Shown here in pieces: positions 6,969 to 39,149 of a DNA stretch of 64,000 nt (the first letter of the stretch is position 1; every line of letters begins with the position of its first letter). The notes under the pieces are model-generated. The model did no database searches. It was not told the DNA's origin and saw only the letters and a program-made list of their open reading frames with translations. Location of the stretch: positions 1 through 64,000 of the IMG/VR virus record IMGVR_UViG_3300031603_000001; one strand, written 5' to 3'. Source of the stretch: a virus. A program made the translations under genes and the position numbers.

Positions 6969-8381
6969 GTGACACAAACACTAACTTTCAACAATGGTTT
7001 AGCCCACAAGCGCTTAACCAAACGAGTTCCAGAAAAGTATCTGGACTCTGTACTCCGTCCTAACATTGAACAAGGCGAAGGTATTCGTCCTTCCCAGGTA
7101 TTCATTCCCCACCGGTCACTACCGGTTAAGTTTGAAGATCGTTCAACTGGACAGTATGTAGTATTGCCTAAGGGCCGTATTATCTCAATCCTTACCATGA
7201 AGAATGATGCCGCATCTGTTGATTCAGGCGCCTCAGACTTTGATGGTGATGCTATTCGCATCACACAAGACTCTTCTTATTACGGTGTAAGTCGTAATAC
7301 TCTGGGTCTTTTAGTACCAGCAAACGGTGGAACTGATTATATCGCAACCTACGCAGCTGCTGATTTACTAGCAGAAGTACCGGATGCTTCACAATCCTCA
7401 GGCTCAGAAGCCAACGTTACTGTAGATGGGACGATGACCATCGACGCCAATGCTCCTGTAGGTGTAATGTACAAAGATGTTTTCCAAGACATCCGTGGAC
7501 AGTACCTGAACTATGAGACATTCAAGAACTACGGTATCCTTACACAAGGACACTTAGCTATTCCTTTCATTGATGTTCGCGTTGCGGCAGATATGGCAGA
7601 CGTAGCTCAGACCAAGTTCATGCCTAAGGGCTTTGATGCTGACCTGACTGGTGTTGTTGCACATGATGCAGCAGCTGATGATCTAACAGGCGCCAATCCT
7701 GCACTAGCAGGTGACAACAGCGCGACACATATCACCATTACTGATACAGCTCACGGTCTTATCGCTAATGATGTTATTACAATTTCTGGTGCTATAGATG
7801 GCGGCGACGACACTGCTATCACGCTTAATGGTGCACAGACTGTAGTGTCTGTTATTGATGCCGACAACTTCGTACTCGAAATTGCGAATGATGATGTAAC
7901 TGCACTTACTGGTACCATCGTATGGGCCAAGGCTGACGCCGCTGCAACTGGAGCCGGTTACGCAGCTGTAGAAGCATACTTCAGTTACCTTACACTGAAC
8001 AGTACAAATGCTGCTCACAGTGCACCTGGTGCATTCTTGACAGCTGATATCTATGGGAACTATGTACCTCAGTACAAGACCCTTAGCTCCAACTATAAGA
8101 CGGTTCAGACTGTAGGACGTATCCTCGGTCTTGATAACCGTTTTCCAAAGGACCTCTTAGAAACTGTGGAATCACAGCGATGGAATAGCAATGTGCTAGG
8201 CCGTGCCGCTGGAACAGAATCTGAAGGTCTATCTGAACACCTGTTCTGGTTTGCGTACCGTGCACTGCAAGGTGCTGGTTATACCTGGCCGACTGACGGG
8301 ACAGATCCTGCGAAGAAGATTATCGCTATGGTTAAAGCTGGTGCCTTCGGAATGGCACACATCCAGCTCTGCATCAAATAA
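6969..8381 (+). CDS. Head decoration / minor capsid protein with an inserted beta-barrel
   Basis: GTG start with TAAGGAG RBS; immediately upstream of the capsid gene; VVLPKGRII and APVGVMYKDVF decoration-type segments; inserted AHGLIANDVITISG...NG...VIDADNF module. Confidence 0.65.
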   Translation: MTQTLTFNNGLAHKRLTKRVPEKYLDSVLRPNIEQGEGIRPSQVFIPHRSLPVKFEDRSTGQYVVLPKGRIISILTMKNDAASVDSGASDFDGDAIRITQDSSYYGVSRNTLGLLVPANGGTDYIATYAAADLLAEVPDASQSSGSEANVTVDGTMTIDANAPVGVMYKDVFQDIRGQYLNYETFKNYGILTQGHLAIPFIDVRVAADMADVAQTKFMPKGFDADLTGVVAHDAAADDLTGANPALAGDNSATHITITDTAHGLIANDVITISGAIDGGDDTAITLNGAQTVVSVIDADNFVLEIANDDVTALTGTIVWAKADAAATGAGYAAVEAYFSYLTLNSTNAAHSAPGAFLTADIYGNYVPQYKTLSSNYKTVQTVGRILGLDNRFPKDLLETVESQRWNSNVLGRAAGTESEGLSEHLFWFAYRALQGAGYTWPTDGTDPAKKIIAMVKAGAFGMAHIQLCIK

Positions 8382-12866: not shown

Positions 12867-12877
12867 GAGTGTTTGAA

Positions 12878-15722: not shown

Positions 15723-16289
15723 ATGCCTAGTTTTGACATTACTCAATCCACTACTGAGGCTATTCAGACCTTCTCAACTTTCTCTGGCTCTGACATCAAA
15801 GCATCTTTCAATAGCATCGAGATCGGAAACCTACAGGGACTATCTGTTTCTGTTAACCGTGAAACACGGCCGGTCTTCGTAATGGGAAATGAAAATGCTG
15901 TCAGCTTCTCACGAGGAAAACGCGGTATCGCAGGATCAATTATCCTCTCTACCTTCGATAAGCATGCCTTAGCTGATGTGCTTAAAGAATCCAGCGTGTA
16001 CAAGAAGGACCAAAATGGTCTGGTTAATGACGCTGATCGCGTTCGTATCTTAGATGACGGAGCCGAGCTAAACGCTTACACAGCTAACGGTCCCGCAATC
16101 TATGCGGATGAACTTCCTCCATTCGATATCTACCTAGTTGCTCGTAACTCATATGGCAAAGCTGCCACTATGGTTATTCGCGGCGTAATCCTCATTAGCG
16201 AGGGCACAGGTGTGTCAGTGGATGATGCAACACAAGAATCACAGCTTACATTTGTTGCCCAACACGTAGAGTGGTGGAAAGCTCTTTAA
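15723..16289 (+). CDS. Major tail tube protein
   Basis: TFSGSDI...LQGLSVSVNRE.RPVFVMG...SRGKRGIAGSII...DELPPFDI...IRGVILISEGTGVSVDD myophage tube signature; directly after the sheath gene. Confidence 0.85.
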   Translation: MPSFDITQSTTEAIQTFSTFSGSDIKASFNSIEIGNLQGLSVSVNRETRPVFVMGNENAVSFSRGKRGIAGSIILSTFDKHALADVLKESSVYKKDQNGLVNDADRVRILDDGAELNAYTANGPAIYADELPPFDIYLVARNSYGKAATMVIRGVILISEGTGVSVDDATQESQLTFVAQHVEWWKAL

Positions 16290-16303
16290 ACTAGAGGTTA
16301 ATT

Positions 16304-16876
16304 ATGGCTGCTTTTAGCTACGATGCAAACGATCGTGAAATGATGGCATACTCAGGTGTGCAGGTTCATACCATGTTCGTTTTCCCATCGCAGATAGGCG
16401 CAAACCAATACTCTGGTTCAACTAGCGCAGACGATGAAGCTGCCGACTATAGATTACCGAATCTCTCTACTCTCTCAATAAGCACGCATAGGGAAAAACT
16501 CCCCGTGCGTGCACTCGGTAAATCTGGTCCGCGTGGATACACTTATGGTCCACGTACAACTGCAGGGAGTATGGTGTTTATTAATCCTTCTACTGAAGGT
16601 ATTCTTGAAGCACTCCAAAGAAACCTCGCCAACAACAGTGTGTACAACAAGGCTACAAAGCTGGATGAACTTCCACCTTTCAATGTAGTCGGTATGGTAA
16701 TCCAGGAAACCGGAGCCCGGCCACTAGTATTCGAACTCTACGGAGTTACGTTTGTCGACAATGGCACCACACTGGGTGTTGATGAAGGTTATACAGAAAC
16801 GGTAGTACAATACCTAGCACTAGATCTATCTGAGATTAGATCCGTGGATGCACGCCAACCTGTATCTAATCACTGA
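16304..16876 (+). CDS. Tail tube paralogue 2
   Basis: AYSGVQV, LSTLSISTHREKLPVRALG, GPRTTAGSMVF, LDELPPFNV and LYGVTFVDNGTTLGVDE align with the preceding tube gene. Confidence 0.8.
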   Translation: MAAFSYDANDREMMAYSGVQVHTMFVFPSQIGANQYSGSTSADDEAADYRLPNLSTLSISTHREKLPVRALGKSGPRGYTYGPRTTAGSMVFINPSTEGILEALQRNLANNSVYNKATKLDELPPFNVVGMVIQETGARPLVFELYGVTFVDNGTTLGVDEGYTETVVQYLALDLSEIRSVDARQPVSNH

Positions 16877-19069: not shown

Positions 19070-19498
19070 ATGCCTGACAAGAAAGAAGAAAAAGCAGAAA
19101 CCACCCCTGAGGCAACAAAGCCTGTAGCAGCAGTGGATGGAGAGAAGACAGAAGTTACAGAAGAGACAGTAGAAGTAGCTCCTGAAATCAAAGCAAAGGT
19201 ACCAAGTACCGAACAAATTGATAAATGGAAAGAGGAATACGGCAAGGTAGACCTCTGCGGAGTAGCAGACGACGCCTTTGTATATCGTCGTATCACACGT
19301 ACGGACCATCAGGAACTGTTGAAAGAAAACGTATTCAACCAACCTGACGCCCAAGAACAGATTGTACGTCGCTTCCTGCTTTTCCCGGATATTGATACTA
19401 TCGATACCGAAGGGTCCGGTGGAATTATCCAGACTATGTCAGAGAACATCCTGCTAGCTTCTGGCTTTGGAAACCGTATGGAGCCTATCACGCTCTAA
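19070..19498 (+). CDS. Tail assembly chaperone 1
   Basis: TAAGGAG RBS; acidic N-terminus, then EQIDKWKEEYGKV...FVYRRITR...GIIQTMSENILLASGF, the pattern of large-myophage tail chaperones; between the tube genes and the tape-measure position. Confidence 0.75.
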   Translation: MPDKKEEKAETTPEATKPVAAVDGEKTEVTEETVEVAPEIKAKVPSTEQIDKWKEEYGKVDLCGVADDAFVYRRITRTDHQELLKENVFNQPDAQEQIVRRFLLFPDIDTIDTEGSGGIIQTMSENILLASGFGNRMEPITL

Positions 19499-19576: not shown

Positions 19577-20203
19577 ATGGCAACACCAAATCAGATCCTA
19601 CTATGGAAACAACTTTACGGTAATATATCAGTCCTCCAAGTGGAGGATTCTGTATGTTATTACAGAGGGCTATCTGTAAACGAATTCCAAGCATTAGCTG
19701 AGCTAGAAGAGAAGCTACCTGCAGCGTCTAAGGAAGAGATGATCATCAAGACAGCGCTGCTAGATCCCCCTCCAGAGGATACACTCGCAGGCTTCCGCCT
19801 GACAGGTAGTCCTATGACTATTGCCAACGCTATTCTAGATGCATCTGTATACACAGAAGATGTCCTTAAGACTAAAGCCGAAGAAGCCAAAGCCTGGGCG
19901 CAATCATCTATTCAACAATCAACACTCTTTGTATTAGCATTGAACATCTCCCAAGTTTTCCCAGCGTTACCCCTACACGCACTTATGGATATGACACCTG
20001 ACCTACTGCTTCGTTATGCCGCGGCAATAGAAGAAGTAACTAAGCAACCCATCCTAACAAGTCTATTTGTACAGCAAGCCAAACAACAGCCAGTGAACCA
20101 TAAGATGGCTGAAGGGTTTGGTGTAGACGCAGAAACAATTAACGATACTACCAACGCCCTGCGTGATCAAATTAAAGATGCGAAGAAGCAGGCCGGTATC
20201 TAA
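19577..20203 (+). CDS. Tail assembly chaperone 2 (paralogue of chaperone 1 with a C-terminal extension)
   Basis: QILLWKQLYGNI...CYYRGLSVNEF...TIANAILDAS parallels chaperone 1; TAATG coupling to the giant ORF. Confidence 0.65.
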   Translation: MATPNQILLWKQLYGNISVLQVEDSVCYYRGLSVNEFQALAELEEKLPAASKEEMIIKTALLDPPPEDTLAGFRLTGSPMTIANAILDASVYTEDVLKTKAEEAKAWAQSSIQQSTLFVLALNISQVFPALPLHALMDMTPDLLLRYAAAIEEVTKQPILTSLFVQQAKQQPVNHKMAEGFGVDAETINDTTNALRDQIKDAKKQAGI

Positions 20204-23200
20204 TGGACCCACAGGGTTACACCTCCAGGGATGAAGCGCTCCGCCTTTTAGGCGACACTCCTCAAAATTCAGCCGCCATGGCCGGAGGACTGGCCTCGGC
20301 TGCAAAAGCCATGGCTGGCTTTGCCCTTGCATTTACAGCAGTAACCAAAGGTATACCAGCAGTAGGAAGACTGGCTGTACGAACAATTGGAGCAACGTCA
20401 AGAGGCTCCGGGTCAGCCTGGCGTAGTGTACTCGGGACAGGACTAGCTTCCGCCAGAGAAGCCGCTAAGCGTACAAGCGGTGGCACGACTACAGAATTTC
20501 TAGCACACCTTACTGAAGCAAAGGGTGGCTCATTCCATAGAATGTTTTCCACTGTACATAAAGCTACATCAGGACAAGCTTATCAACAATATGTAACCGG
20601 TAGCCGGAAGGCTATGACACAGGCAGATAGGTGGAGTTTACTAAAGCCATCTCTAGCAGGAGGACGCGTACGATTCTCAGGACGAGCAGACTCCGCGGAT
20701 ATAGCTAAAGGTATAGGGGCAGCTTACTTCAAAGAAACAGCCATGGCACTCCCTGCCATGTACGCAATGGACAGAAAGTTTGGTGAGCAGAAGGATCATA
20801 TCTCATGGTACAACGTACCAGGCAGAGCGATGGACTTCGCAAAGTATATTCCAGAATATGTAGGGTTTGACGTAGCAGGACGTGGCGCAATGATGGGAGT
20901 AGGTATGGCTAAGGCCGGCCTACTAGCCAAGGCTAGGACATCCAGCGGAGAAGGATGGTTCCCTGACGCACTTAACAAAGTTTCTAAAGTAACAGAATGG
21001 TATAATAAGAGTGGTAACAAATTCAGAGGTGGCCTAGAGGCTGCGTCTGATCATATGCGTGCAGCTAAAGGCTCCTGGCAGAATAGAGTAGACGCCCGCG
21101 CACGGATAGACAATACCAATATATCGAGACTCAAGATAACAGGTCCTGGTACTCGAGAGGGTTGGCAGAGCGTATACCGTGAACAGTTAACCTCTGTAAC
21201 AGATGCACGTAAGAATGCACTTGACAGTAAAAGCCGCATGGAGCAGAGTGGCCTGTTCGAACAGCAGATAGACTCCCTTACTACTTCTAGAGAACAGATA
21301 GCAGACAATATGGGCTCTGCCTTACGTAAGAAGGACGAGTCAGAAGGCTTCATAAAAGATTTCACTAGAACACATTTTGCACAACCAGGACGCAGTGACT
21401 ACTCTTCAGGCACAGAACGTTTTATTATGCGCGCACTCGGTGTACGCAGGGCTAAGTTTGGCGACTTCGATGAAATCACACAAGGCAAGGTACGTAAACA
21501 ACTGAGACAATTCTCAGGTAAAGTATCCGAACTAGATGAATCTATAAAAGAACAAGATTTAGTAGATCTTATTGGAGCTGGTAAGCACGAGACCGATACT
21601 ACTAAGCTGAACTCCCTCCTTGCAAATCAGCATGTATACTATTCAAAATCAGCAGACAAAGTATTTGACTTACGTAAGTGGACACCAGGTGGTGTAATAG
21701 ATAATGCGTTCCAAAAGCTAGGCAGGAGTGGGTCACTGGGCTCAGCCATCTCTACACTGTATCCTGTACGATCAGCTATTGGCGCAGAGCTTCCTACTAT
21801 GATCAACGTAGACGACACCGTGCCTATCATGTTTGGGGGGTCGGCCAATATAACATCGGCAGGACGTTCTAGCTCCCAATGGATGGGAGAGGTTACGGGA
21901 GAAACCGGCTCGCTGCACAACGCATTCAATTTTACTCCTAAAGATGGAGCAAAAGGAAGTAGTGGATTAATACTACGTGATCCGGGTAAGCGAACTTACA
22001 CATTATACGGACGAGATGAAGGCAAGGGAGGCATGCATGCTTTAGCCCGTGACTTACGCCCAATGAGTTCCTTACTCTCCGAAAAGTCAGGCCGCCTGGT
22101 ATACGAGGACGCATCCTATATACCTAAGCAAAAGTTCAATGAGTTTAGAGGGCCGCTAGCTGGAGTTCGTAACTACATCTTCGACAAGACAGGACTTGGC
22201 CACCACACAGGTAATCAGCCTAGTCTCTTTGAGATGGCAGCTAACTTCATAAATAGAAGAGACCCTACCAAGCCTAACTATATATTGAACCCACAACGCT
22301 CCCGTATAGGGAAGTTGACTGGTGATAAAGCGTTATGGAAAACAAAGAGTCCTACAGAGAGGGCAGAATTATTAGCAGAGGCAAACGCCTCTCTAAGTAA
22401 TCTTCGTAGCGTTGAGAACGAAGCATACCGTAAAGTACTCCTACAAGACAAGGCAGTATATAAAGAACTATTAGTAGACAACGCAGGGAATCTGCACAAT
22501 TACAATGATGCAGCTGGTATAGGAGGTACTCCTCTTAGCGAGCCTGGGTTAACCACAGACCAGTTTGTCTATAAACTTATGCATGACCCTGTTGAGGCTA
22601 AGCGTGTAGCTACTCGGCTACTTAATCAATCAGATAATACTTATAAAAAGATAGCTAATGAACACGACCTACGGTCGTACATTGAGAATCAGATCATAGG
22701 AAAGCCTGATTCATTTCTAATTAAGTCTCACGGGCAAGACACCCCACACCTAAAGTTATTGAGATTCATTGGAGATGTTAATTCTAAAGCGGTAAGCCTT
22801 AAGTCCCACATGAATGACGACCCTGTCGCCAGAGCTGTACAAGCTGCTGTAAATAAGACAGGAAGATTCAGTGACAGAGATCTGGCAGGAGCAAAGCTAG
22901 CAGTAGAGTCACGTTTATTTAGAAACAAACATGCAGATGCAATTAAAAGCTTTAAGAATAACGTCAATGGCGAGTTAGTATTTAACGATGATACTACTAA
23001 CGGAATAGCAGCGCTACAACAACTACAGCACAGCACCGCTAACGATCAGTACCTGAAACAGACTCCTTTCTTTAAGAGGTTTGGTAAACCATCAGATGCA
23101 CGTTCCGAGCAGATGCAAACCATCAATACGCTCACAGATAAAACACCCTATGTGTTAGTAGGAGGCAAAAGCCCTGTAGGCATGGGCGCCACTAAATTCA

Positions 23201-26200
23201 TGGGACGTTGGGCATATGATACCTTTGGATCCACCATGGACCTTATGGGGCTAGGGTGGGATAGAGGTAAGTACCAAAGCTTCTGGCCTAAGCTAGGTAA
23301 TAAAGAGCATCAATCCGTTGGGGCACTGTTCGCAAAGCGAGCATTATTATTCGCAGGTATCGAAACCATGTACGACGCAGTGGACACATTCACAGACGTC
23401 ACCCCCATCTTCGCAGGCACAATGTTCGATGAGGGCATATCAACTGCAGGCGCAGACCACGCTGTACGTTTACGCATGGGAGCTGGTAAAGTGTATGACG
23501 CCATTGGTGTAACAGCCGCGGCTAAATACATGGAAGGCCTAATGCCTAAATCTTCCAAGATACTACCAGGTGCCGCAATGGGCTTCATGGCATACGGTGT
23601 GCCTGGGGCAGCAGTAGGCGCTGTGTTAAACTCTTATGTACAACCACAGTTATCTGAAGGGCCGCTATCATTTTTAGCAGCCATACCCATGGCCGCCCCT
23701 TTTGTAGCAGATCTCACTAAATCACACGAAGAGCTTCAGGACTTATACACCGGCCGTGACTTAACAGCTTGGCGTAAGGGAGCAGGCTGGACCTTGGGTA
23801 CAACACCAATCGAAGGCGGTCGTGTAGACTCGCTGGTACCTAACTGGTACGCACGTATGAAATCAAGTGCCGATACCACTGCGGTTCAATACGGGTCTAG
23901 ACTAGAGAAGTTCATATTCAAAGACAGAGCATTCATTGACTTCTCCCTCGGTGATCTCATAGATCCCCAGTACCTAACACGTAAACATTATTACGATCGC
24001 CCGTACGTAGAACCGGATGTTCCATTCAGCGAAATGCCTTTGATTGGACCAACCATTGGTACTGCCATAGGAAAGATGTACAACGCCCTTCACCCTCTTG
24101 GCAGTAACAAACTTATGCATCTAGATGAAGCTCGTAGAAACATGGCAAGCGGTGTATCAGGTGCAGGAACTGGTGCCCACGAGAGTGGCATGCTAGCGGG
24201 GTTTGGAGAATACACTGGTGTATTTGGTGAGTTTGATATGGGAACACAGGTACTACCTGGCCTAGGGCTTATTAGTGACGAGTACGTAAACAGATCTTCG
24301 TCTCTACGTGCGGCGGCAGGCGAACAAGTGTACCGTGGATTTATCGAGCCTGCAGGATTATCAGGGTTCCTGACATCAACAGCTATGTGGGGAGGTAATG
24401 AGCCTTTCTCAGATGAAGCATACCTGGAAAGCTCAAGCTCTATCGATTCAACCACACGCTCTCTGTGGGACCGTAACCTTGGTGATTTACTACTAACTAA
24501 TGAGGGGTTACGTAGACTGTACCCGCGTCCACGTACCTCATTTGATAAAGTCAACCCTATTAATAACTTGATGCCTGGCTGGATGCCAGAAGAGTACCGT
24601 ACTGGTGACCCCTACTGTCTGACATCTAAATCAGAGGTTGAGATCATTAGTGGTATCAAACGCGCAGATGAAGTACAAGTAGGCGATCTTATACGCACGT
24701 CATCAGGTAGGTACACACCAGTAGCAGAAGTAATACCACGTAAGATCAGTGAAAAAGTGTACACCATCAAGCTGAAGGAATCGGATGCTACAATTCAAGT
24801 TACGGGTGACCACCCATTCCTAATTAACTCAGGCAACAGATACCAACAGGCTAAGCTCCTGAAGAAGGAAGACAGCATTGTATACCCATTACGCGACCTG
24901 ACCACAGTGCAGCCTTACATCGTACCAGCAGAGGGCAAGAGTGGCGCAATCATGCTAACAGGTGGAGTAGCCTTAGCCCTTGGTATACTAGTGAAGTATG
25001 GTATATTATTTGATGACACTATCTTACTAAGAGACTGTCCTGTCGCACTAGATGAACTTAAGTTCATATTCAAAGAGCACCTTAACTGTTACATTACGAA
25101 GTCCTTCACCATTGACAGACTGAGTGTAGTATCAGTATTCAAGCAGCTGCTTAAGTACGGGATCCCGGATAGCTTCTACAAAGTAGGAACATACGTCTTC
25201 CTACAGTTCGCAAAACATTTTATGATACCATCCGAGGATGGAGAACTACAGTTTACATTCCCAACACGTTCCATGGCGTACCAGGCCTGGAGTATCTTTG
25301 CCCAAGACAAGCTATTGACTGAGCTCACGCTTAATTCATTACACGTGAGAGGAAGCTCGGCATCAGTGATACACTACATGCTCACAAATATCCCAATCAA
25401 TTATTCACTAGAGGACGAGGACAGAGTACGACCAAGGACAGCTCTCAACAATAAAACCTTATGGATGTCCATTGAATGGGTCCGTAGGGACGATTATACC
25501 GGCACAGTGTATGGATTCTCAGTAGACACTGATGATAGCTTCTGTGTACTACACGCTTGTACTCACAACACGAAGAAGCCATTCGGAGAATACATCCTTC
25601 CCGGTGCAGGCTATGAAGCAGGTCACGACATCACAGTTGATTACCCAACTGGAGGTTCGCGCCTAGGTTACAATCCATACGACCAGGCCCTAAGTATGGT
25701 AGGCTTAACATCTATTGATGACGACGAGACCCTCGAGATCCTTGAAGGCGGAACAGCTATTCACCGTATGGTCCAGCACGCACTCAAAGCACAGAACTCA
25801 CGTGTTAAAACTGAAGCACTAGTTACTGATCCAGAACACCGCATATCATCTTATGTTGATGTTGTGCTGCCTAAGGACTTTAGTGGCCAAGAAGTGCCTC
25901 TTGAAGTAAAGACAATTAATCCTTTGGGGTTCCAACGCCTTACTAAGCCTAAGTATAAGAACTCGGTACAGCTTAATGCCTACATGCATATGATGGGCGT
26001 TAACAAAGGCCGCATGATGTACGTTAACCGGGAAGATCCTACCCAGGTTAAAACGTATGACACATATTACAGCGAGAAGATGTGGCAAGAGACTGTGTCC
26101 AACCTGGACCAAGCGCGTACCATGGCGGACAGCATGTCCAAAGAAGGTTATGGGACTAACTCCGCTGGTTACAGTTACACAGATCGATTCGAAGTGTTAC

Positions 26201-33600: not shown

Positions 33601-35659
33601 ATTTGCACCCCAAGGAGGAACAGGGAGGGATCTAGTACTACAGACAAAAGGGTTTGGTCTAGGAGAAAGTCCAATATCCTATCAGTCAGCCGTCGACTTA
33701 CTTCAGGAGCTAAAACAAACAGGGCAATTAGGTGTATCAGACGAGGCAGCTGCAGGATGGCTGCGTGGAGAAACTGGCCGAAGAATGGGCCGCAATAGAT
33801 CTCCTGATGCAGTACAAGGTCAAGTACTAATCGGCCAACTATACGTACAGCCGGATGAATTATGGAAAGCTGCGGACTCCTTAGGTGCTCCTTACGTATC
33901 TAACTCAGCGGTATACGTAGATCGCGTTGCCATGAAGTTCATGCGTGGTGATCAGGACGGTGACCTTGCAGCACTGCTAAACATGGGCGGGTTTATTGAT
34001 TCAGAAACGGGACAGATAGGGCCTAAAGGCAGCGCTTCCCGTAATCTTACAGGTGGAATCTCAGTATCAGAAGCAACTGAAAAGATGGCCTTGGCACATT
34101 CATCGTACTTAGCTAAGTGGGAAGAACTAGAACGGCGAAGAAAAGGAATTGGACGAGCAGCCCCGGGTGATGTGTACTTTGCAGGCACAGTGAACCAGGA
34201 TGGTAGAGAGTTATTCCTACATAAAGATCCTACTAAACATCTCACCATGACTGCTAGCCTACGGGAAACACTCCCGGAAGGCCTACTTTCTGATGTTATC
34301 CAGATAGACGATCCTGTACAAACAAGTGTACAGCACCTTACCCAGAAATCCTTTACACCTATAATTGGTGGGTACGTTAAAGGTGCTATCGCCATGGCGT
34401 ATGGAGGAAGGTTAGGACTACTAAACAGATTAGAAGATGAAATAGCAGGATCTCCAGGCGCATTCGACACACTACTCGAGAAGAATAACCTCGGAGGAAT
34501 CTACGGACGTACCTTGACTAGTGGCGCATATCTGAAATCTATGGGCACACTCAATACAGTGCATCCAAACCTATTAAATCAAACTGGACACGAGCTTGTA
34601 GGAAATGCCATGTCAGCTATGATGCAAGAGGGTGGTATAACAAAGATCAACACTAACCCAGTAGCAGGCCTCGTCACGTTGATGTCTCATATGCGTAACA
34701 TCAAAACAGCTATGGGTACTCCTCAATTTGATGAAGCTACTAAATTCCTTGCATATATGGATGATCACCCCGACTTTGAGGGTATGAGTATACTCCATCA
34801 GTTACGAGACCGCCCAGCCTCACAGTACAGCCAAGTAGAGAATGTACAACTTCGGCAGACAGCTTACGAATTAGCCAATGCGTATGGTATAGCAACCAAT
34901 ACACTAGAAGCTACTGCTAAAATAAACCAAGCCCAATTCCTAGAAACAATAGGAGAAAAGAAGAACAAAGGCAAGATTGCTGAAATGCTTGATACTATAC
35001 ACACTAGTAGGTTTATTGGAGACATGGATAGGCAAGCTGCTAGCGGGCCTACTTCAGAAATACAATCACTAGTTGCAGGTAATGACGGCTTTACCACAGC
35101 CTTTAGATCAACCCTCACTCACTCTATGCGTTCCTTAGGTATGCACAATAATACTACAGAAAACTTAGTAGCAGGCATGATGGGAGGCATAGGTAGCACA
35201 ACAACTATGCGTATGCGCTCGGCTGGTAGAATAATGACAGAGACCCTTAAAGAGAACGTCGGGCGTTTGTTTAATTTCATAGACTCATCAACTGTACGTA
35301 AACTATCCGGACGTATAGGTACTGTTGCTGCAGCACTTACGTTCTTTGATCCAAACACAGGTTCCATGATGATAGGAGAGGGTGAAGGACGTGGCGGAGA
35401 ATACAGTGACATACCATCTGGTAAGGAAGTGATGAGAGCTTTCAAGAACCGCAAGACTGTTAGAACTAAAGAAGCCAACCCCTTCTTGCAAGATAAGCTA
35501 GCACGTCTCTCATTTGCTAACCCTAGAAATGAACGTAGAACTGTCAGAGGGCAACTGGTACCAGAGGCGCCAAAGTATGAATACAACAACCATACACGCA
35601 AATTCAATAAATTTAATATTAGTGACCATCTCCGCAGAGCTGGTGCGATAATGCAATGA
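27653..35659 (+). CDS. Giant virion-associated protein (2668 aa): DEDDh exonuclease plus a putative two-barrel RNA polymerase catalytic region
   Basis: Overlaps the end of the previous giant ORF. Exo I/II/III motifs at aa 576-854; RSP (2049-2051) and GDQDGD (2099-2104) in a beta-prime-like context. Confidence 0.65.
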   Translation: MADKTKDAQDTALSALLSLPTLLGIVKAAPTVVDALSQFSTYLNKNTTESVNSVLNSFLEQSADAPYVRTADTSMVKAAQKAIESTKQQLVHEQRQRLGVSNAEIADGTKSKWRAISQAISNNPSRKGYGTTIISGEGVSSSIEINNLYDMMANGFSSANHPIAPFRRPDQAAPGTAFLNKMDKHFPGSQAQYGTVGSIRPAAALAFVQAHQRGYGYGPTNQIRLGNYSEAAVEEHLGELAGELDNVHKAALLGDQRAQRVMRDTYKNLQKSVSPTEQRVTSFSADIQVRLEKTKSISLQSSANIETWLRVGTEGSSAARVRDLASKTLYGRIGHPELYTQLNDPVYRSAKIGDQLNRYRAILQEVKASSAGATGPEMEAIDAIEKTIRAQNSKMRNMQLEIAGITYDNGGLTQQALEFTISSNGKNKSMHLQPISWMVPVTTQGYISRGPGAIPDVTILNHAGLYGSNARNLKDAGDMALMDNAKMFGKLLNDIRDNRMSEEEIRRVVSRASSKSTAYTVPRTYTAKDVMNRTMVQFDEHDFYLNRQSKDNFRRVIEGSKGIDLLRTGGDAILYDTEYGSGLSRRTATPQEVTRSLATETYEHGLLYMDTAADRLLAAPEPGSLNAVPTGSQARHNMEMWLRTHGTSASEVVEWKRKARLNGSTGKVARRAIALMGKWEEEYLHRDGRSRQSFFFTQEGPAFDVPILRNTLQQLSANGIGERELRKEFGPLYDRLFAGINNRHAVADVLSDSYRHANAMSIFRVLNPKQPVSEGAQSMFTFYYGMSTLELEKTVGMATSETAWKDKTIINRVFGKKGPTPKQLESVKYILKTIRDDNLVGKTGPIHGHAAQFDVTMLRYILTGMQKQVGNLSAKELAGINTVATRAETLYQRSSASWTSGPNFIQSNRDRFDPYAPQTASGALSVSLTSTSKTQASRLKGTLLHLEKVLPLGALNNFGREKYQFAAGRVLNPMAGSNTYKGKKLTTAVGYGQLQTTAAAIELEFETLANTLGNDAPPELLRAMEEMTADKEAGNLNLPKLFAKMNAIKSRVGHTSVITMIDYLPEGFAYTEESGSIIQDQLLPYFASYAKESKHTTYFNTKYTAAQIGTDEGMAKFLSKLKFHKGIQYEINKKLSDKTLAISQPVAGKFSLELMGMHGAFDEAQRFVENSGTPPPSAVLAGEALVTSDTSGLGSLYAFGPEYDHQVPGFPSKITIDTNTGEISIGLHHVELDSLGGKTQTDGKVTKQSNTGLSGRVMGTLGNPKYTRGYTLDPFVGAAQGGKYGGSRNETAAALLKQVDRISTKWVMYDNLSIVEQERRANKIWTDLLGDKAADIDFSHTTITTPNGDRPILVTILPDRAEMAVKQNYKLGKLEEILRREGLTYDYVQRRFKENIDRLKLSDPGGRWTAAITQLNQSLERDINTSKAGSTEYANLVRVQANIGNPNEAAPLDLVSLVHGMGKSAQHWGLRALGTRSTSSSVADFWIKFSRAETLSGFPNITPRLLGTTANILLQSFDLATRTKKGGAGPADFNVMAGFLSGQAGVNHVNMWNENAIGDTLLDTQLLNEFYLNKRGVIPDTLDIKGLPNPKKIGITSASVLDVTEELEILGSLQKHVDFDDPNFHSMGRNERSHYLQGKFGKKPSDDFLHNLQLAKDQRETVWYADREWLHRAKLLKPRGPGGNRFIRYDAPTLTQLSKGFDIHGGGSWQTQIARALDSNGADSIKAVGYNGKTVILDSLKKRLIDAKLIDGNGRLQFEFDVKDLLESQIEKLGSNTGGDAAKHKELLQALLRQVDEASVTKDHFVLPSIGGVQAPYASGDRVLFSGLMKDTQGTLQAFGKLDSMRIDLTMDTATSKYRKYRKGKGGIHEAAIIDMGIDSVVADIKRNAMEVSGRVMNTWTKIGTAGFQQANFRAAAGTTTMAWGKLQNSMTLVPALEQVYSKIGTSDFVNTSYALPDFLNVSDKSPFKLDTWLSNLSKGNKVFAPQGGTGRDLVLQTKGFGLGESPISYQSAVDLLQELKQTGQLGVSDEAAAGWLRGETGRRMGRNRSPDAVQGQVLIGQLYVQPDELWKAADSLGAPYVSNSAVYVDRVAMKFMRGDQDGDLAALLNMGGFIDSETGQIGPKGSASRNLTGGISVSEATEKMALAHSSYLAKWEELERRRKGIGRAAPGDVYFAGTVNQDGRELFLHKDPTKHLTMTASLRETLPEGLLSDVIQIDDPVQTSVQHLTQKSFTPIIGGYVKGAIAMAYGGRLGLLNRLEDEIAGSPGAFDTLLEKNNLGGIYGRTLTSGAYLKSMGTLNTVHPNLLNQTGHELVGNAMSAMMQEGGITKINTNPVAGLVTLMSHMRNIKTAMGTPQFDEATKFLAYMDDHPDFEGMSILHQLRDRPASQYSQVENVQLRQTAYELANAYGIATNTLEATAKINQAQFLETIGEKKNKGKIAEMLDTIHTSRFIGDMDRQAASGPTSEIQSLVAGNDGFTTAFRSTLTHSMRSLGMHNNTTENLVAGMMGGIGSTTTMRMRSAGRIMTETLKENVGRLFNFIDSSTVRKLSGRIGTVAAALTFFDPNTGSMMIGEGEGRGGEYSDIPSGKEVMRAFKNRKTVRTKEANPFLQDKLARLSFANPRNERRTVRGQLVPEAPKYEYNNHTRKFNKFNISDHLRRAGAIMQ
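29366..30250 (+). other. DEDDh (DnaQ-like) 3'-5' exonuclease domain
   Basis: Exo I ILYDTEYG (D576, E578) then ETYEHGLL; Exo II TQEGPAFDVPIL (D704); Exo III HGHAAQFDV (H849-x4-D854). All catalytic positions are intact. Confidence 0.85.
33620..34110 (+). other. Putative double-psi beta-barrel RNA polymerase active-site region
   Basis: RDLVLQTKGFGLGESPISYQSAVDLL...GRNRSP...NSAVYVDRVAMKFMRGDQDGDLAALL parallels E. coli beta-prime [26 protein letters not shown]...LLNRAP...[24 protein letters not shown]. Confidence 0.6.
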
Positions 35660-35829
35660 TAGTAATTAACCTAGCACTGAAGAATATCCCTTACGAACTC
35701 GATATCCAACAGATACTCGATCACATCAGACTTATACTAATAGAACAATATGGCGTAGACCCAGAGTTCGTCGTCAACGATCATGATCTAGTTAACATAC
35801 TAAGACTTTCCGGATTACAAAATGGCTAA
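35656..35829 (+). CDS. 57-aa ORF missing from the supplied track
   Basis: MIVINLALKNIPYELDIQQILDHIRLILIEQYGVDPEFVVNDHDLVNILRLSGLQNG. The ATG overlaps the TGA of the giant ORF (ATGA) and the TAA overlaps the next start, filling the gap exactly. Confidence 0.75.
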   Translation: MIVINLALKNIPYELDIQQILDHIRLILIEQYGVDPEFVVNDHDLVNILRLSGLQNG

Positions 35830-38800
35830 TCTAAAATACACAGATATACTAGACGGTATCGCTACATTCGAATCTTCTACTACAGCCAGCGGGGCTACTA
35901 AAGTAAGTACACTCACAGGCAAGTACTATGGAATCTATCAAATAGACCGTGCTAACCAGACAAGAGTACTAGGTCTGGACGCTGAGGGCAAATACCTACC
36001 AAGGTACAAAGGATTCGGACTGAACTCTACAGTAGCGGCTGATTTAGCTAATCGAATACAAGTCGGCACAACCAATGCCACAGCATTAACTACAAATGAA
36101 CAAAGACTTGTATGGCTAATATGGCATACAATAGAAGCAGTATATCAACTGTATAAATTTGATGCACGTAAGTGGTCAACAGATGTCGACATAGATGGAC
36201 GCAGAATAGCTTTATCTAACATAAGTCCAGCAACAGCAGCACGTGCTAACGACGCTTTGTGGGATATACTCTGCAGTATTACAGCACGTTGTCCCGCGGG
36301 TGGGCACAAAACAGGCCCTACACATCTGCAGACTATCAAACAGCTACTAGGAGACCCATTAGATCCAAACAAAGCAGGTCCTGGCGCAGTTGGTAAATAT
36401 GGGCCGTCTGTGTTTAGATACATGGTCACAGCAAGGTACCCAATAGCACCTAATAATAACGGCTATGGCCAGTTATTAGGGTACACGAAGAGGCACAGTA
36501 AAGGTGCATTAAAAGTGTCTGATCCGGCTACAGAATCTAAAGCTGACTGGAGTGTATCAAGTCTGGACATTTACCAAACATTAGCAAAAGAACTAACAGA
36601 GTTAAACGACACTGTAGGTCTATTCTCAGCTTTTGAATTCGGGTACAAATTCATTAACAAACTATTCAGAGTTGATCTAGCGACTCTTAACAACGTGCAC
36701 GGTGAGCAAGCCAGTGAAGTGGCATATGACACACGCACGCTAGAAGGTATATACTCGTACATACCTACTATAGAAATGACTAAGAGTACACCAGGGCTTC
36801 CACTGTATATAGGCGACTTGGGTTTCATAACTCCTCCAACAGCTATACGGTACAACGCGGCCGGGCAGTCCTACGCTTTTGAAGCACTACGCACCAGTAG
36901 CAACCCTATTGTACCTGTTAGCACGCAAAGACCAAGTATATCAATCACCCTGTACCTACATGGACAGGATGAAGTAAACAATAAACTACGCCCATTACTC
37001 GCTATGGCTAAACGTACCCCTTTTACACAAGTACGAAGTGGGATACTGTACAACATGTTAGTAGACCGCATACTTGCACAAGAACTCGAAGATATAGAGG
37101 ATAAAGCACAAGTACCTATCCCTGTTATAATCGATAACGTTTCTTTCCATACAGTCCCAGGGTACCCTGACGCTGTGCAGGTGTTCTTAACACTACGCTT
37201 CTTCAATGTATTCCCATACGGAATGATGTATTCTTATAATCCACAGACTCCCGATGAGATATCGGAAACCGTTAATTACAAAATCAATGAAGTCCTACGC
37301 CACTCTAGGGCCTTCAACCCCATCAGCTCTGCTGGGGAAACATTCGTTTCAGCCGACGGCTCACGAGTTAAGCTGCCCAAAGAGCAGCTCCCTCAATCCT
37401 TGACTGCTAATCTACACGATTCCCCTGAGTTTATACATTTCTACAGAGAACAACTAGCTGATTACACAACTCCTATGAGTTACGTACAATTGCCCGCTAA
37501 ATGGCCTGCCTATATACCAGACGGCGCGGCACAGACTACCCTCACATACAACACTATTACTAAACTAAATAGTCCATTCGTTGACGCACTCGAGTGGGTG
37601 CAAGGGCAGAAGGATGAAATATCTAGAGTCACTAGGATATTTGACTGGCTATACACTGACCCCAGAGGGCTGAAAACCTATAAGAATAGTAGTGACCCTG
37701 CTGCAATTAAAATACTGTTCTGGGAAAAGCTAGCAAGTCTTATTGATGCTACCCATAACCTAAAGGAGGGCGTCAGATTAATAAGATCAGAAGCCAATAG
37801 ACTAGTACTAGACGTACTAGACTCTACGGATTCACAAGACTTTACCTCAGCCGATTACCAACTATTTGCAGAAGAACTTGTCAACAACCCCTTCGTAGGC
37901 ATACCGACTGATGAAGTACAACACACTAGCACTTTACACGATGTGTTCGAAGCAGCCGTAGGCGACAAGGTAGAGAATATAACTACTGCCACCTACAAAC
38001 GCTGGCTAGAGAACCTTATAAACAGGGACAGTCCTATTCTCGCTACAGTAGAGGATCTACTTACTGTCAAAGTCAAAGCCTTATTTGGCAGCACTGAGAC
38101 AGCACCACGTACTGTGGCATTAACTTCCCAAAAGACGCCTGGCCCTACAAACACAGAGCTCGCGTCTGTACTGACGTCTATTAGCATATCGTACGGAAAC
38201 AAACTAGTCCCGATAGACATATTACAATACAAAACACCAACGTTTCAACATACTGGTATGGGACAGTTCGGTATGAGTATGATTATACAAACAAATGACC
38301 CAGGTATGATATCCACCATTAATGATATTAGACTAACACAAGCCGCCTTATCTAATCCTAATGAGATGGGAGGAGGCCGAGATCGTATAACTATATCGGA
38401 CCCACTACTTAACTCGTTTGGTTTACAGTATTTCAGTATTCGTAATACTCAAATCAAAACTATGACAGGCGCTGTGGGTTGGTACGAAATAGCAATTGAT
38501 ACATTACATAATCCAAAGACATTACACATGGCTGAGGACATTAAATCACTTACCACTAGCGCTAAAGCAGTGGTGCGTAGGTTGACCCCTTTGTTCTTTC
38601 CAGCAGAAATTGATATTGATCATCTTAGAGGACCAGACGGAGGAGTAACTCAGCAACTAGATGCCGGAAGGCTCTCTGTAGTTGGGACAGAAGGCTGGGT
38701 GTATGCTGACCATGAGTATCTAACTACTGATTACCAATTCACGATAGCCGACAGCCTGGTAGCAGTTTCCCCAGGTCAAAGTGATAATGACATTCAAATT

Positions 38801-39139
38801 ACTAAATCATTAAATGCGATACTGGAGCCTATACGTTCCGTACTTTTAGACTGGTCTACTGTGCTAGTGGCTGGAGGGGCAACTCACTTCAAAGATATGA
38901 TTAAGATAATGGCCAAACGTTACATGACATTCTCCGCCCAATCTGCAGTATTATGGATGGCGCAGCATACCAGCGCTACTCTCCCGGACGCTAAGTACAT
39001 AGACTTAACAGACCCAGAAGTCTCCGGGGTATCCACTGCCACGGCAGTTGCACTACATGTGCATCGCAAAACATTTATGCACACACTCTTTACGAACGCG
39101 CAGTTCAATAAGCAAATGAAGATTGCTAAACAACCTTAA
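35822..39139 (+). CDS. Baseplate/tail-tip structural protein with an N-terminal lysozyme-fold (SLT-like) motif
   Basis: N-terminus IATFESS...KYYGIYQID resembles the lysozyme E...YGxxQI motif. The middle PLYIGDLGF...ALRTSSNP...VPGYPDAVQVFLTL and late SISISYGNKLVPI...PTFQHTG blocks look like tube/hub-junction modules. Lies before the hub. Confidence 0.6.
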   Translation: MANLKYTDILDGIATFESSTTASGATKVSTLTGKYYGIYQIDRANQTRVLGLDAEGKYLPRYKGFGLNSTVAADLANRIQVGTTNATALTTNEQRLVWLIWHTIEAVYQLYKFDARKWSTDVDIDGRRIALSNISPATAARANDALWDILCSITARCPAGGHKTGPTHLQTIKQLLGDPLDPNKAGPGAVGKYGPSVFRYMVTARYPIAPNNNGYGQLLGYTKRHSKGALKVSDPATESKADWSVSSLDIYQTLAKELTELNDTVGLFSAFEFGYKFINKLFRVDLATLNNVHGEQASEVAYDTRTLEGIYSYIPTIEMTKSTPGLPLYIGDLGFITPPTAIRYNAAGQSYAFEALRTSSNPIVPVSTQRPSISITLYLHGQDEVNNKLRPLLAMAKRTPFTQVRSGILYNMLVDRILAQELEDIEDKAQVPIPVIIDNVSFHTVPGYPDAVQVFLTLRFFNVFPYGMMYSYNPQTPDEISETVNYKINEVLRHSRAFNPISSAGETFVSADGSRVKLPKEQLPQSLTANLHDSPEFIHFYREQLADYTTPMSYVQLPAKWPAYIPDGAAQTTLTYNTITKLNSPFVDALEWVQGQKDEISRVTRIFDWLYTDPRGLKTYKNSSDPAAIKILFWEKLASLIDATHNLKEGVRLIRSEANRLVLDVLDSTDSQDFTSADYQLFAEELVNNPFVGIPTDEVQHTSTLHDVFEAAVGDKVENITTATYKRWLENLINRDSPILATVEDLLTVKVKALFGSTETAPRTVALTSQKTPGPTNTELASVLTSISISYGNKLVPIDILQYKTPTFQHTGMGQFGMSMIIQTNDPGMISTINDIRLTQAALSNPNEMGGGRDRITISDPLLNSFGLQYFSIRNTQIKTMTGAVGWYEIAIDTLHNPKTLHMAEDIKSLTTSAKAVVRRLTPLFFPAEIDIDHLRGPDGGVTQQLDAGRLSVVGTEGWVYADHEYLTTDYQFTIADSLVAVSPGQSDNDIQITKSLNAILEPIRSVLLDWSTVLVAGGATHFKDMIKIMAKRYMTFSAQSAVLWMAQHTSATLPDAKYIDLTDPEVSGVSTATAVALHVHRKTFMHTLFTNAQFNKQMKIAKQP

Positions 39140-39149
39140 GTAGGTAAAT

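What the first reader, a model, noticed from the sequence alone, without database searches (positions are those of the whole stretch)
20203..35829. Candidate injected enzyme cassette: two giant tape-measure-locus proteins carrying an RNA polymerase-like core and two different nucleases
Seen in sequence: where one tape-measure gene is expected (after the chaperones, before the hub) there are two overlapping ORFs of 2486 and 2668 aa plus a coupled 57-aa ORF. Together they carry glycine-zipper segments, a PD-(D/E)XK nuclease, a DEDDh exonuclease and a DxDGD polymerase-like region. Established: tape-measure proteins are ejected into the cell, and virion two-barrel RNAPs occur in crAss-like phi14:2 (gp66) and fused to the tail tape in Thermus phage P23-45. 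Inference: this myophage may deliver a membrane channel plus transcription machinery and two nucleases of different families with its genome, for genome pull-in, early transcription, end processing or host DNA/RNA attack. I know of no described virion module with this combination.
Basis: partly seen in the sequence, partly recalled or inferred. Interest (0 to 1): 0.92.

Follow-up and report, generated by a model that had tools for sequence, protein, structure and literature searches.

The report
Giant tail proteins carrying three enzymes
Two giant genes in the tape-measure slot of an uncultured 198-kb phage encode two well-supported nuclease domains, a self-splicing intein and a probable RNA-polymerase active site; dozens of related phage contigs share the layout, which suggests these phages deliver enzymes through the tail along with their DNA.

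Summary
ORF1 (2486 aa), ORF2 (2668 aa) and a 57-aa ORF overlap one another between the tail chaperonins and the baseplate hub of a myophage distantly related to Bacillus phage 0305phi8-36.

- **ORF1** is a homologue of 0305phi8-36 gp145, which was found in virions by mass spectrometry. It has a RecB-type PD-(D/E)XK nuclease and glycine-rich membrane-like segments.
- **ORF2, exonuclease:** a confident model (pLDDT 85.5) matches DEDDh enzymes at Z 12-14.5. All five catalytic residues are kept in 16 of 16 relatives, down to 15% identity.
- **ORF2, polymerase:** this call is weaker. The DxDGD aspartates are kept in 14 of 14 relatives. Seven of 12 more distant "second giants" carry a lone DxDGD-type motif about 80% along the chain (0.12 expected by chance). 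A 74-column profile match to the active-site barrel of the P23-45 tape-measure RNA polymerase gives E = 7e-4. No fold, second barrel or bridge helix could be shown.

Delivery into the cell is inferred, not shown. I rate this a new variant of known kinds (tape-measure-fused virion RNA polymerase; polyvalent virion proteins). The scan has noted it only on this same genome, not on other DNA.

The parts
19070..19498 (+). Tail assembly chaperonin, gp143-like (142 aa)
   Evidence: BLASTP to 0305phi8-36 gp143, E 1e-10
19577..20203 (+). Tail assembly chaperonin, gp144-like (208 aa); its stop overlaps the ORF1 start
   Evidence: BLASTP to gp144, E 1e-3; junction TAATG
20203..27663 (+). ORF1, 2486 aa: member of the gp145 family of giant virion proteins
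   Evidence: Homologous to 0305phi8-36 gp145 over aa 917-2422; 42 clusters of relatives
20278..20370 (+). ORF1 aa 26-56: N-terminal glycine/alanine-rich hydrophobic segment
   Evidence: Hydropathy windows
23560..23721 (+). ORF1 aa 1120-1173: glycine-zipper-like hydrophobic segments in the most conserved core
24616..25569 (+). ORF1 aa 1472-1789: class-1 intein (Cys1, TxxH, His-Asn end, Thr+1) inserted after GDPY
   Evidence: Pfam Intein_splicing scores 41.4 bits against a cut-off of 35.8. gp145 reads straight through the site. 27 of 32 relatives carry the intein at the same site
25732..26130 (+). ORF1 aa 1844-1976: RecB-type PD-(D/E)XK nuclease (D1886, E1901-x-K1903, Q1923-xxx-Y1927)
   Evidence: phrog_1706 E 4e-14, phrog_2506 and phrog_1990. 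Pfam PDDEXK_1 E 0.01. Motif residues kept in 23-27 of 32 relatives
26659..26757 (+). ORF1 aa 2153-2185: third glycine-zipper segment, also present in gp145
27653..35659 (+). ORF2, 2668 aa: the second giant, in the slot of the 0305phi8-36 tape-measure protein gp146
   Evidence: Synteny; family of about 16 proteins
29342..30265 (+). ORF2 aa 564-871: DEDDh (DnaQ-fold) 3'-5' exonuclease domain; D576, E578, D704, H849, D854
   Evidence: AlphaFold2 pLDDT 85.5. VIA-align Z 14.5 to 3'hExo and 13.8 to Pol III epsilon. Residues kept in 16 of 16
31364..31555 (+). ORF2 aa 1238-1301: conserved basic cluster (K1238, K1247, K1283, R1288, E1290), function unassigned
   Evidence: Invariant in 7-9 sequences, partly kept in 16
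33794..33988 (+). ORF2 aa 2048-2112: NRxP ... DQDGD, the candidate catalytic barrel (DPBB-A) of a two-barrel polymerase
   Evidence: Aspartates kept in 14 of 14. hhalign to the gp96 profile gives E 7e-4 over 74 columns, with 0 of 40 shuffles reaching the real score. The motif recurs at about 80% of chain length in distant relatives
35309..35656 (+). ORF2 aa 2553-2668: conserved C-terminal module (hydrophobic stretch, DPNxxS, GE.YD.P), also found as the end of short proteins
35656..35829 (+). Conserved acidic 57-aa ORF that overlaps both ORF2 and the hub gene
   Evidence: Homologues of 55 and 61 aa sit in the same place in L004 and L005
35822..43247 (+). Baseplate hub, gp147-like, here as two ORFs (1105 + 1365 aa)
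   Evidence: phrog_20474 matches both ORFs. BLASTP to gp147, E 6e-9. It is a single gene of about 2430 aa in L004 and L005

Best explanation
This is the tail-lumen (tape-measure-locus) module of a large myophage of the 0305phi8-36 lineage. Its two giant proteins are both structural parts and carriers of enzymes. ORF1 (gp145 family) combines membrane-like glycine-zipper segments with a RecB-type nuclease, and it matures by intein splicing. ORF2 sits in the tape-measure slot. It carries a DEDDh 3'-5' exonuclease at about 22% of its length and, at about 79%, the catalytic acidic loop of a two-barrel polymerase, most likely a virion RNA polymerase. The inferred mechanism is as follows. The chaperonins load both proteins into the tail tube. 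On contraction the proteins leave ahead of the DNA, and their hydrophobic segments help form the membrane conduit. The enzyme domains then reach the cytoplasm. There the polymerase would start pre-early transcription, as shown for P23-45 gp96, while the nucleases trim nucleic-acid ends or attack host nucleic acids. Shown here: gene order, homology, both nuclease domains, the intein, and conservation of the catalytic residues. Inferred: virion packaging of these particular proteins, ejection, polymerase activity, and what the nucleases act on.
For: Synteny with 0305phi8-36 runs chaperonins, gp145, gp146, hub; gp145 and gp146 were found in virions by mass spectrometry. ORF1 is homologous to gp145. 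Nuclease HMM hit at E 4e-14. The exonuclease model has pLDDT 85.5 and matches DEDDh enzymes over their whole domains at Z 12-14.5. The DEDDh residues are kept in 16 of 16 relatives and the DxDGD aspartates in 14 of 14, down to 15% identity. In 12 second giants that the profile cannot detect, the DxD[GQRA]D motif falls in the 74-84% position window 7 times against 0.12 expected. Nine of those 12 also have a DnaQ-type ExoI motif near aa 500-555. hhalign of the family against the gp96 virion RNA polymerase profile gives E 7e-4 over 74 columns from NRxP to DxDGD, and 0 of 40 motif-preserving shuffles reach the real score. The two best named atlas clusters are viral PF05183 RdRP/YonO-type proteins (score 0.82, a lead only). 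The P23-45 precedent is described in PMC10770324.
Against: No fold evidence exists for the polymerase: the model of aa 1200-2399 failed (pLDDT 42). No second barrel, bridge helix or trigger loop was found. ORF2 has no Pfam, PHROG, NCBIfam or PDB sequence hit. With the first 9-sequence profile, the match to gp96 and beta-prime was no better than shuffles that kept only the pentapeptide. ORF2 shows no detectable similarity to gp146 or to ME3 gp036, so its virion location rests on position alone. The 1046-aa second polymerase could not be confirmed by sequence. No cultured phage carries an ORF2-family protein.
Confidence: 0.6

Rival explanations
1. ORF2 is a tape-measure or ejection protein with a real exonuclease domain, but its DxDGD triad is not a polymerase site. 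It would instead bind metal (Ca2+ or Mg2+) for a structural role or for some other catalysis.
For: Only the loop region resembles RNA polymerases. No barrel fold, second barrel or bridge helix was found. The first profile comparison was no better than motif-preserving shuffles. The atlas score of 0.82 is within what shuffled proteins can reach.
Against: The larger profile matches gp96 over 74 columns, including NRxP upstream of the triad (E 7e-4; 0 of 40 shuffles). The G in DxDGD is kept in 13 of 14 relatives, and the flanks (a hydrophobic strand, then G or A before the motif and small hydrophobic residues after it) follow the beta-prime and gp96 pattern. The triad persists at the same relative position even where all other similarity has gone. 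The P23-45 authors describe that same pattern for two-barrel polymerase families (PMC10770324).
Confidence: 0.2
2. The proteins are virion parts, but their enzyme domains act inside the particle or during assembly (for example on genome ends during packaging), or are relics. They would not be delivered to the host cytoplasm.
For: Ejection was not tested. Two globular enzyme domains would have to pass through or lie unfolded in a narrow tail tube. The nuclease residues of ORF1 are missing in 5-9 of 32 relatives.
Against: Catalytic residues are fully conserved across very divergent ORF2 relatives, which argues for selected activity. Ejection of tape-measure proteins into the cell is established knowledge, and the P23-45 tape-measure-fused polymerase transcribes pre-early genes in the infected cell (PMC10770324). 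The hydrophobic glycine-zipper segments fit membrane insertion.
Confidence: 0.1
3. ORF2 is a two-barrel DNA polymerase or primase-like enzyme with its own proofreading exonuclease, comparable in logic to archaeal PolD. It would be delivered to repair, fill in or prime the incoming genome rather than to transcribe it.
For: A DEDDh domain is the classic partner of DNA polymerases. All the best viral fold matches are proofreading domains. The exonuclease and the triad co-occur across the whole group. PolD shares the two-barrel core (PMC10770324).
Against: The exonuclease fold matches RNA-acting DEDDh enzymes (3'hExo, ERI, RNase T) as well as it matches Pol III epsilon. The only significant profile match is to an RNA polymerase. 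The two domains are about 1500 residues apart.
Confidence: 0.07

Closest known systems
Thermus phage P23-45 gp96, the tape-measure protein fused to a virion RNA polymerase, together with the gp64 non-virion polymerase (PMC10770324)
   Same: A giant protein at the tape-measure locus with a DxDGD centre. There is a 74-column profile match around the catalytic barrel (E 7e-4). Each genome also holds a second, separate candidate polymerase gene.
   Different: P23-45 is a siphophage and this is a myophage. The polymerase is N-terminal in gp96 (aa 327-1124 of 5002) and lies near 79% of the chain here. In the text I read on gp96, a search for 'nuclease' gave no occurrence, and the domains reported there are a metallopeptidase and transmembrane segments. 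No partner giant protein is annotated beside gp96. Activity and structure are proven there and not here.
Bacillus phage 0305phi8-36 gp145 and gp146, and Acinetobacter phage ME3 gp035 and gp036
   Same: Same gene order: chaperonins, giant 1, giant 2, hub. ORF1 is a true homologue of gp145 and gp035, including the nuclease motifs and a glycine zipper. Both 0305phi8-36 proteins are in virions by mass spectrometry.
   Different: gp145 has no intein. gp146 has no detectable similarity to ORF2 and no DxDxD motif. ME3 gp036 has DHDQD at 76% of its length, but the match is not significant. The records and the one paper I read on them (PMC2147016) name no enzyme domain in these proteins.
Polyvalent proteins of phages and conjugative elements (Iyer et al. 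2017, PMC5512222), including the N4 gp50 virion RNA polymerase
   Same: Giant multi-domain proteins encoded among virion genes. They combine unrelated enzyme activities, including nucleases and polymerases, and are predicted to enter the host with the DNA.
   Different: That survey does not use the term tape measure and mentions exonuclease only once. Its virion polymerase is the single-subunit T7-like type, not the two-barrel type. The hallmark MuF and zincin domains were not found here.
crAss-like phage phi14:2 gp66 and the YonO/QDE-1 group of single-chain two-barrel RNA polymerases
   Same: A single chain with a DxDxD centre, packaged in the virion in the case of gp66. The best named atlas clusters for ORF2 belong to PF05183.
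   Different: No HMM hit to PF05183 in this genome. gp66 belongs to a podophage and is not in the tape-measure slot. The comparison with gp66 rests on PMC10770324 and was not tested directly.
DEDDh exonucleases: 3'hExo/ERI1, Pol III epsilon, RNase T, TREX1/2
   Same: The fold matches over the whole catalytic domain (Z 12-14.5, rmsd about 3 A). The Exo I (DxE), Exo II (D) and Exo III (H-x4-D) residues are all present.
   Different: No sequence-family membership (no Pfam or NCBIfam hit). There are inserts of about 100 aa between the motifs. The domain is embedded in a 2668-aa virion-module protein.

Membership tests
DEDDh (DnaQ-like) 3'-5' exonuclease superfamily | RNase H-like DnaQ fold | tested here: met
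   AlphaFold2 pLDDT 85.5, pTM 0.88. VIA-align Z 14.5 to 1w0h (189 of 200 aa) and 13.8 to 2ido_C (173 of 175 aa). All of the top 50 Foldseek hits are exonucleases of this fold.
DEDDh (DnaQ-like) 3'-5' exonuclease superfamily | Exo I DxE, Exo II D and Exo III H-x4-D, in that order | tested here: met
   D576/E578, D704 and H849/D854 are kept in 16 of 16 relatives.
DEDDh (DnaQ-like) 3'-5' exonuclease superfamily | Match to a curated sequence model (for example Pfam RNase_T) | tested here: not met
   No Pfam, NCBIfam or PHROG hit for aa 540-900 even at E 1-5. Membership is therefore at the level of fold and motifs only.
PD-(D/E)XK nucleases, RecB/Cas4-like branch | HMM match to family models | tested here: met
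   phrog_1706 E 4e-14, phrog_2506 E 1e-6, phrog_1990 E 2e-4. Pfam PDDEXK_1 only reaches E 0.01, below its cut-off.
PD-(D/E)XK nucleases, RecB/Cas4-like branch | Core D ... (D/E)xK plus the QxxxY motif | tested here: met
   D1886, E1901-x-K1903 and Q1923-xxx-Y1927 are kept in 27, 23, 24, 24 and 24 of 32 relatives respectively. They are also present in gp145.
Cas4 proper | Four-cysteine Fe-S cluster | tested here: not met
   ORF1 aa 1790-2000 contains no cysteine (translation). It is a RecB-type domain, not a Cas4.
Two-barrel (DPBB) RNA polymerases | DxDxD metal-binding triad on the catalytic barrel (DPBB-A) | tested here: met
   DQDGD at 2100-2104. The aspartates are kept in 14 of 14 relatives. 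The context NRxP ... DP.....(G/A)DxDGD aligns to gp96 at E 7e-4.
Two-barrel (DPBB) RNA polymerases | Two double-psi beta-barrel folds forming one active site | tested here: inconclusive
   The model of aa 1200-2399 had pLDDT 42 and could not be used.
Two-barrel (DPBB) RNA polymerases | Second barrel (DPBB-B) with two basic residues; bridge helix and trigger loop | tested here: inconclusive
   No significant hhalign match to the rpoB barrel, the beta-prime bridge helix or the gp96 flanks. The basic cluster at aa 1238-1301 is unassigned.
Two-barrel (DPBB) RNA polymerases | Match to curated models (PF05183 RdRP and others) | tested here: not met
   No PF05183 hit in the genome at E <= 1 and no Pfam hit in any of 9 family members. 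Such families often share only the motif region (PMC10770324).
Two-barrel (DPBB) RNA polymerases | Template-dependent RNA synthesis | not testable with these tools
   Needs biochemistry.
Class-1 intein | Hint splicing domain with Cys1, block-B TxxH, terminal His-Asn and a +1 Ser/Thr/Cys | tested here: met
   Pfam PF14890 scores 41.4 bits against a cut-off of 35.8. C1472, T1534-xx-H1537, H1788-N1789 and T1790 are present.
Class-1 intein | Precise insertion relative to an intein-free homologue | tested here: met
   gp145 reads TGDPY-IKVKKGE straight through the site. Five of 32 relatives lack the element.
Class-1 intein | Homing endonuclease domain | tested here: inconclusive
   No LAGLIDADG or HNH hit in this copy. 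Some relatives carry PF14528.
Tail tape-measure protein | Gene lies between the tail chaperones and the baseplate hub | tested here: met
   Both giant genes share the slot.
Tail tape-measure protein | Homology to an assigned tape-measure protein; length that scales with tail length | tested here: not met
   No similarity between ORF2 and gp146 or gp96 outside the DxDGD loop. The tail length of this uncultured phage is unknown, so scaling cannot be tested.

The most novel reading that the evidence does not exclude
ORF2 is an active two-barrel RNA polymerase delivered through a contractile tail and fused in one chain to an active DEDDh exonuclease. It travels with a partner giant protein that brings a RecB-type nuclease. 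This exonuclease-plus-polymerase design would be the ancestral, conserved plan of the second giant protein across a whole group of large, mostly marine, uncultured myophages. It would be the first two-barrel polymerase with a built-in 3'-5' exonuclease and the first enzyme cassette in the tail lumen of a myophage.
Probability: 0.4. Interest if true: 0.85.

Novelty: new variant of a known kind. Interest (0 to 1): 0.7.

Why it matters
How large phages start gene expression and protect their DNA in the first seconds of infection is mostly unknown. Only a few virion-borne polymerases have been described: N4 gp50, the phiKZ-type virion polymerases, crAss-like gp66 and P23-45 gp96. If the reading here is right, a widespread group of uncultured myophages sends a polymerase, a 3'-5' exonuclease and a RecB-type nuclease down the tail with the genome. 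That would extend the P23-45 principle to contractile tails. It would also give a first case of an exonuclease joined to a two-barrel polymerase, which bears on RNA 3'-end editing, proofreading or genome-end processing. Finally, it would give functions to two of the largest unannotated phage protein families. Even without the polymerase, two catalytically intact nucleases in tape-measure-locus proteins are unreported in the papers I could search.

Tried and rejected
- **No close relatives among phage records.** Megablast of the region found nothing. tblastn of ORF2, of the L005 homologue and of P0010 found nothing either.
- **No sequence-level identity for ORF2.** Pfam, PHROGs, NCBIfam and PDB sequence or profile searches gave no hits.
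- **Word-based homologue search** found only one relative even with a profile query. The metagenome contig scan found none.
- **AlphaFold2 of ORF2 aa 1200-2399** gave pLDDT 42, so I ran no fold search on it.
- **hhalign of the family** against gp146, ME3 gp036 and the phage's own 1046-aa DSDGD protein gave nothing.
- **The idea that 'YLTQK' at aa 2228 is the bridge helix** (compare beta-prime 'YLTRR') got no support.
- **Searches for the second barrel** against rpoB and the gp96 flanks gave nothing.
- **The 9-sequence profile match** to gp96 and beta-prime was no better than shuffles that kept only DFDGD. Only the 16-sequence profile rose above that control.
- **ME3 gp036's DHDQD** aligns over just 13 columns, within the shuffle range.
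- **The atlas search on the exonuclease region** pointed to LPD domains, not to exonucleases.
- **The 1046-aa ORF** could not be confirmed as a polymerase by sequence.
- **Calling the ORF1 nuclease a Cas4** is rejected, because it has no cysteines.


Full report
**Observation**

Each start overlaps the previous stop. The window is the first 64 kb of a 197,958-bp IMG/VR virus record that CheckV rates complete.

The surroundings are a myophage tail module. There is a sheath gene (12869-15610), two tube paralogues and a baseplate wedge gene. The two ORFs just upstream match the split tail chaperonins gp143 and gp144 of Bacillus phage 0305phi8-36. The gene just downstream matches its hub, gp147.

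**The pair is the rule in this lineage**

0305phi8-36 has gp145 (1930 aa) and gp146 (2537 aa, assigned as tape measure from tail length) in the same slot. Both were found in virions by mass spectrometry (PMC2147016). Acinetobacter phage ME3 has gp035 and gp036 there.

Two IMG/VR contigs found with the ORF2 family show the same order: a ~200-aa ORF, giant 1, giant 2, a small ORF, then the hub. Their small ORFs (55 and 61 aa) are homologous to the 57-aa ORF, so that ORF is a real gene.

A scan with the ORF1 family returned 28 viral loci. Wherever enough DNA follows, the ORF1-like gene is directly followed by a second giant gene of 2000-3000 aa.

**ORF1**

ORF1 is homologous to gp145 over aa 917-2422. 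It belongs to a family of at least 42 clusters at 90% identity, many of them from marine samples.

- **Nuclease.** Residues 1844-1976 match PHROG nuclease families (phrog_1706 E 4e-14, plus phrog_2506 and phrog_1990). They carry the RecB-type motifs D1886, E1901-x-K1903 and Q1923-xxx-Y1927. These are kept in 23-27 of 32 relatives and in gp145. The domain has no cysteines, so it is not a Cas4 in the strict sense.
- **Hydrophobic segments.** Glycine-rich hydrophobic segments lie at aa 26-56, 1120-1173 and 2160-2179.
- **Intein.** It has Cys1, TxxH, a terminal His-Asn and Thr+1. Scanned alone it passes Pfam's cut-off (41.4 against 35.8 bits). gp145 reads straight through the insertion point.
- **Intein distribution.** An element of 300-365 aa sits at this same site in 27 of 32 relatives. 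Other members carry further inteins at three or more other sites, some with LAGLIDADG domains. Inteins in tape-measure proteins have been reported in actinobacteriophages (bioRxiv 10.1101/2025.01.02.630785), so this is not a new kind of thing.

**ORF2, the exonuclease**

ORF2 has no hit in Pfam, PHROGs, NCBIfam or PDB sequences. An exhaustive HMMER search found a small family of proteins about 2600 aa long. Viral loci raised this to 16 sequences, down to 15% identity to ORF2.

D576, E578, D704, H849 and D854 are kept in all 16. The local patterns are textbook Exo I, II and III: FDTE(Y/F), Q.....(F/A)D and H...(F/Y)D.

AlphaFold2 on aa 540-900 gave pLDDT 85.5 and pTM 0.88. All of the top 50 Foldseek hits are DnaQ-fold exonucleases. 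VIA-align gave the following:

| Target | Z | Aligned residues |
|---|---|---|
| 3'hExo (1w0h) | 14.5 | 189 of 200 |
| Pol III epsilon (2ido_C) | 13.8 | 173 of 175 |
| RNase T | ~13 | about 195-200 of 202-212 |
| TREX1/2 | ~12 | about 180-185 of 210-225 |

The viral structure library returns only polymerase proofreading domains and stand-alone DEDDh enzymes. I treat this domain as established at the level of fold and motifs.

**ORF2, the polymerase-like centre**

DQDGD lies at aa 2100-2104. The three aspartates are kept in 14 of 14 relatives that cover the site, and the glycine in 13 of 14. The conserved context is NRxP, about 15 residues, (Y/V)xP(D/E)E, about 20 residues, DP(L/I)..., then (G/A)DxDGD followed by small hydrophobic residues. 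This parallels beta-prime (NRAP ... HPLVCAAYNADFDGD) and P23-45 gp96 (FRNP ... VDFDGD).

The statistics need care. With 9 sequences, the hhalign scores against gp96 and beta-prime were no better than shuffles that kept only the pentapeptide. With 16 sequences, the match to a three-sequence gp96 profile reached E 7e-4 over 74 columns, and none of 40 such shuffles reached the real score in either crop. For beta-prime the counts were 0 of 40 and 3 of 40.

Independent support comes from 12 more distant second giants that the family HMM cannot detect. DxD[GQRA]D occurs 8 times against 1.2 expected. Seven of those fall within 74-84% of chain length, against 0.12 expected. Three more proteins have DxDxD at 77-79%. 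In ORF2 itself the motif is at 79%. Nine of the 12 also have a DnaQ-type hDxE(T/S/F) motif near aa 500-555. So an exonuclease at about 22% and an acidic triad at about 80% look like the ancestral plan of this protein.

The protein atlas put two viral PF05183 clusters first (score 0.82, a lead only).

Evidence against: the 1200-residue model failed (pLDDT 42). No second barrel, bridge helix or trigger loop could be found. I put the chance that this is a two-barrel polymerase centre at about 0.7-0.75.

**Mechanism (inferred)**

The best-supported reading follows P23-45. There a polymerase fused to the tape-measure protein transcribes pre-early genes, including the gene for a second, non-virion polymerase (PMC10770324).

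This genome has a separate 1046-aa ORF with DSDGD at 164412-167549 on the minus strand. I confirmed the ORF and the motif, but I could not confirm the family by sequence.

What the two nucleases act on is unknown. Candidates are processing of genome ends, trimming of RNA 3' ends, or attack on host nucleic acids. The general concept of giant virion proteins that combine unrelated enzymes is established as "polyvalent proteins" (PMC5512222). That paper does not cover tape-measure-locus proteins or two-barrel polymerases.

**Verdict**

- Both nucleases are real domains with conserved catalytic residues.
- The polymerase is probable, but its fold is unproven.
- Delivery into the cell is inferred.
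- I found no paper that describes this combination.
- Novelty: a new variant of known kinds. Interest: 0.7.

Noticed in passing
window 24616-25569; relatives P0018, P0020, P0024, P0026, P0038, P0039: The ORF1 family is an intein hot spot. One site (after GDPY) is occupied in 27 of 32 members. At least three other sites (near ORF1 aa 1196, 2245-2254 and 2390) carry further inteins in some members, some of them with LAGLIDADG domains. An intein this close to fixed might have been recruited for maturation.
   Followed up: partly
window 35309-35656; proteins P0012-P0015: The last ~110 aa of ORF2 (a hydrophobic stretch, DPNxxS, GE.YD.P) also form the C-terminus of short proteins of 130-431 aa from other sources. 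This looks like a portable module, perhaps for docking to the hub or the tail tip.
   Followed up: no
window 31364-31555: A strongly conserved basic cluster in ORF2 (K1238, K1247, K1283, R1288, E1290; consensus G.KFGGSRNE) lies about 800 aa upstream of DQDGD. Its role is unknown. It could be a distant second barrel or a separate nucleic-acid-binding site.
   Followed up: partly
window 35822-43247: The hub is split into two ORFs (1105 + 1365 aa, with a 10-nt gap), whereas L004 and L005 have one gene of about 2430 aa. This may be a real split or a sequencing error.
   Followed up: no
window 15723-16876; L001: The two tail-tube paralogues hit phrog_9206, which is labelled 'major head protein'. 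That label appears to come from a product name in the 0305phi8-36 record, whose own note says tail tube.
   Followed up: no
window 6969-8381: A 470-aa ORF just upstream of the major head protein gene contains SDFDGD. The ORF2 family profile does not align there, so this looks like a chance motif.
   Followed up: yes
L002 (Acinetobacter phage ME3) gp036 aa 1214-1226: 'MGGDHDQDQAAVL' sits at 76% of the chain in a cultured phage's second giant protein and resembles the ORF2 triad. The match is not significant, but it is a lead to a model that could be tested in the laboratory.
   Followed up: partly
L034 13315-23177: In one distant relative the second giant is split into 1245-aa and 2051-aa ORFs, and the DxDxD motif (DVDQD) lies in the first.
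   Followed up: no
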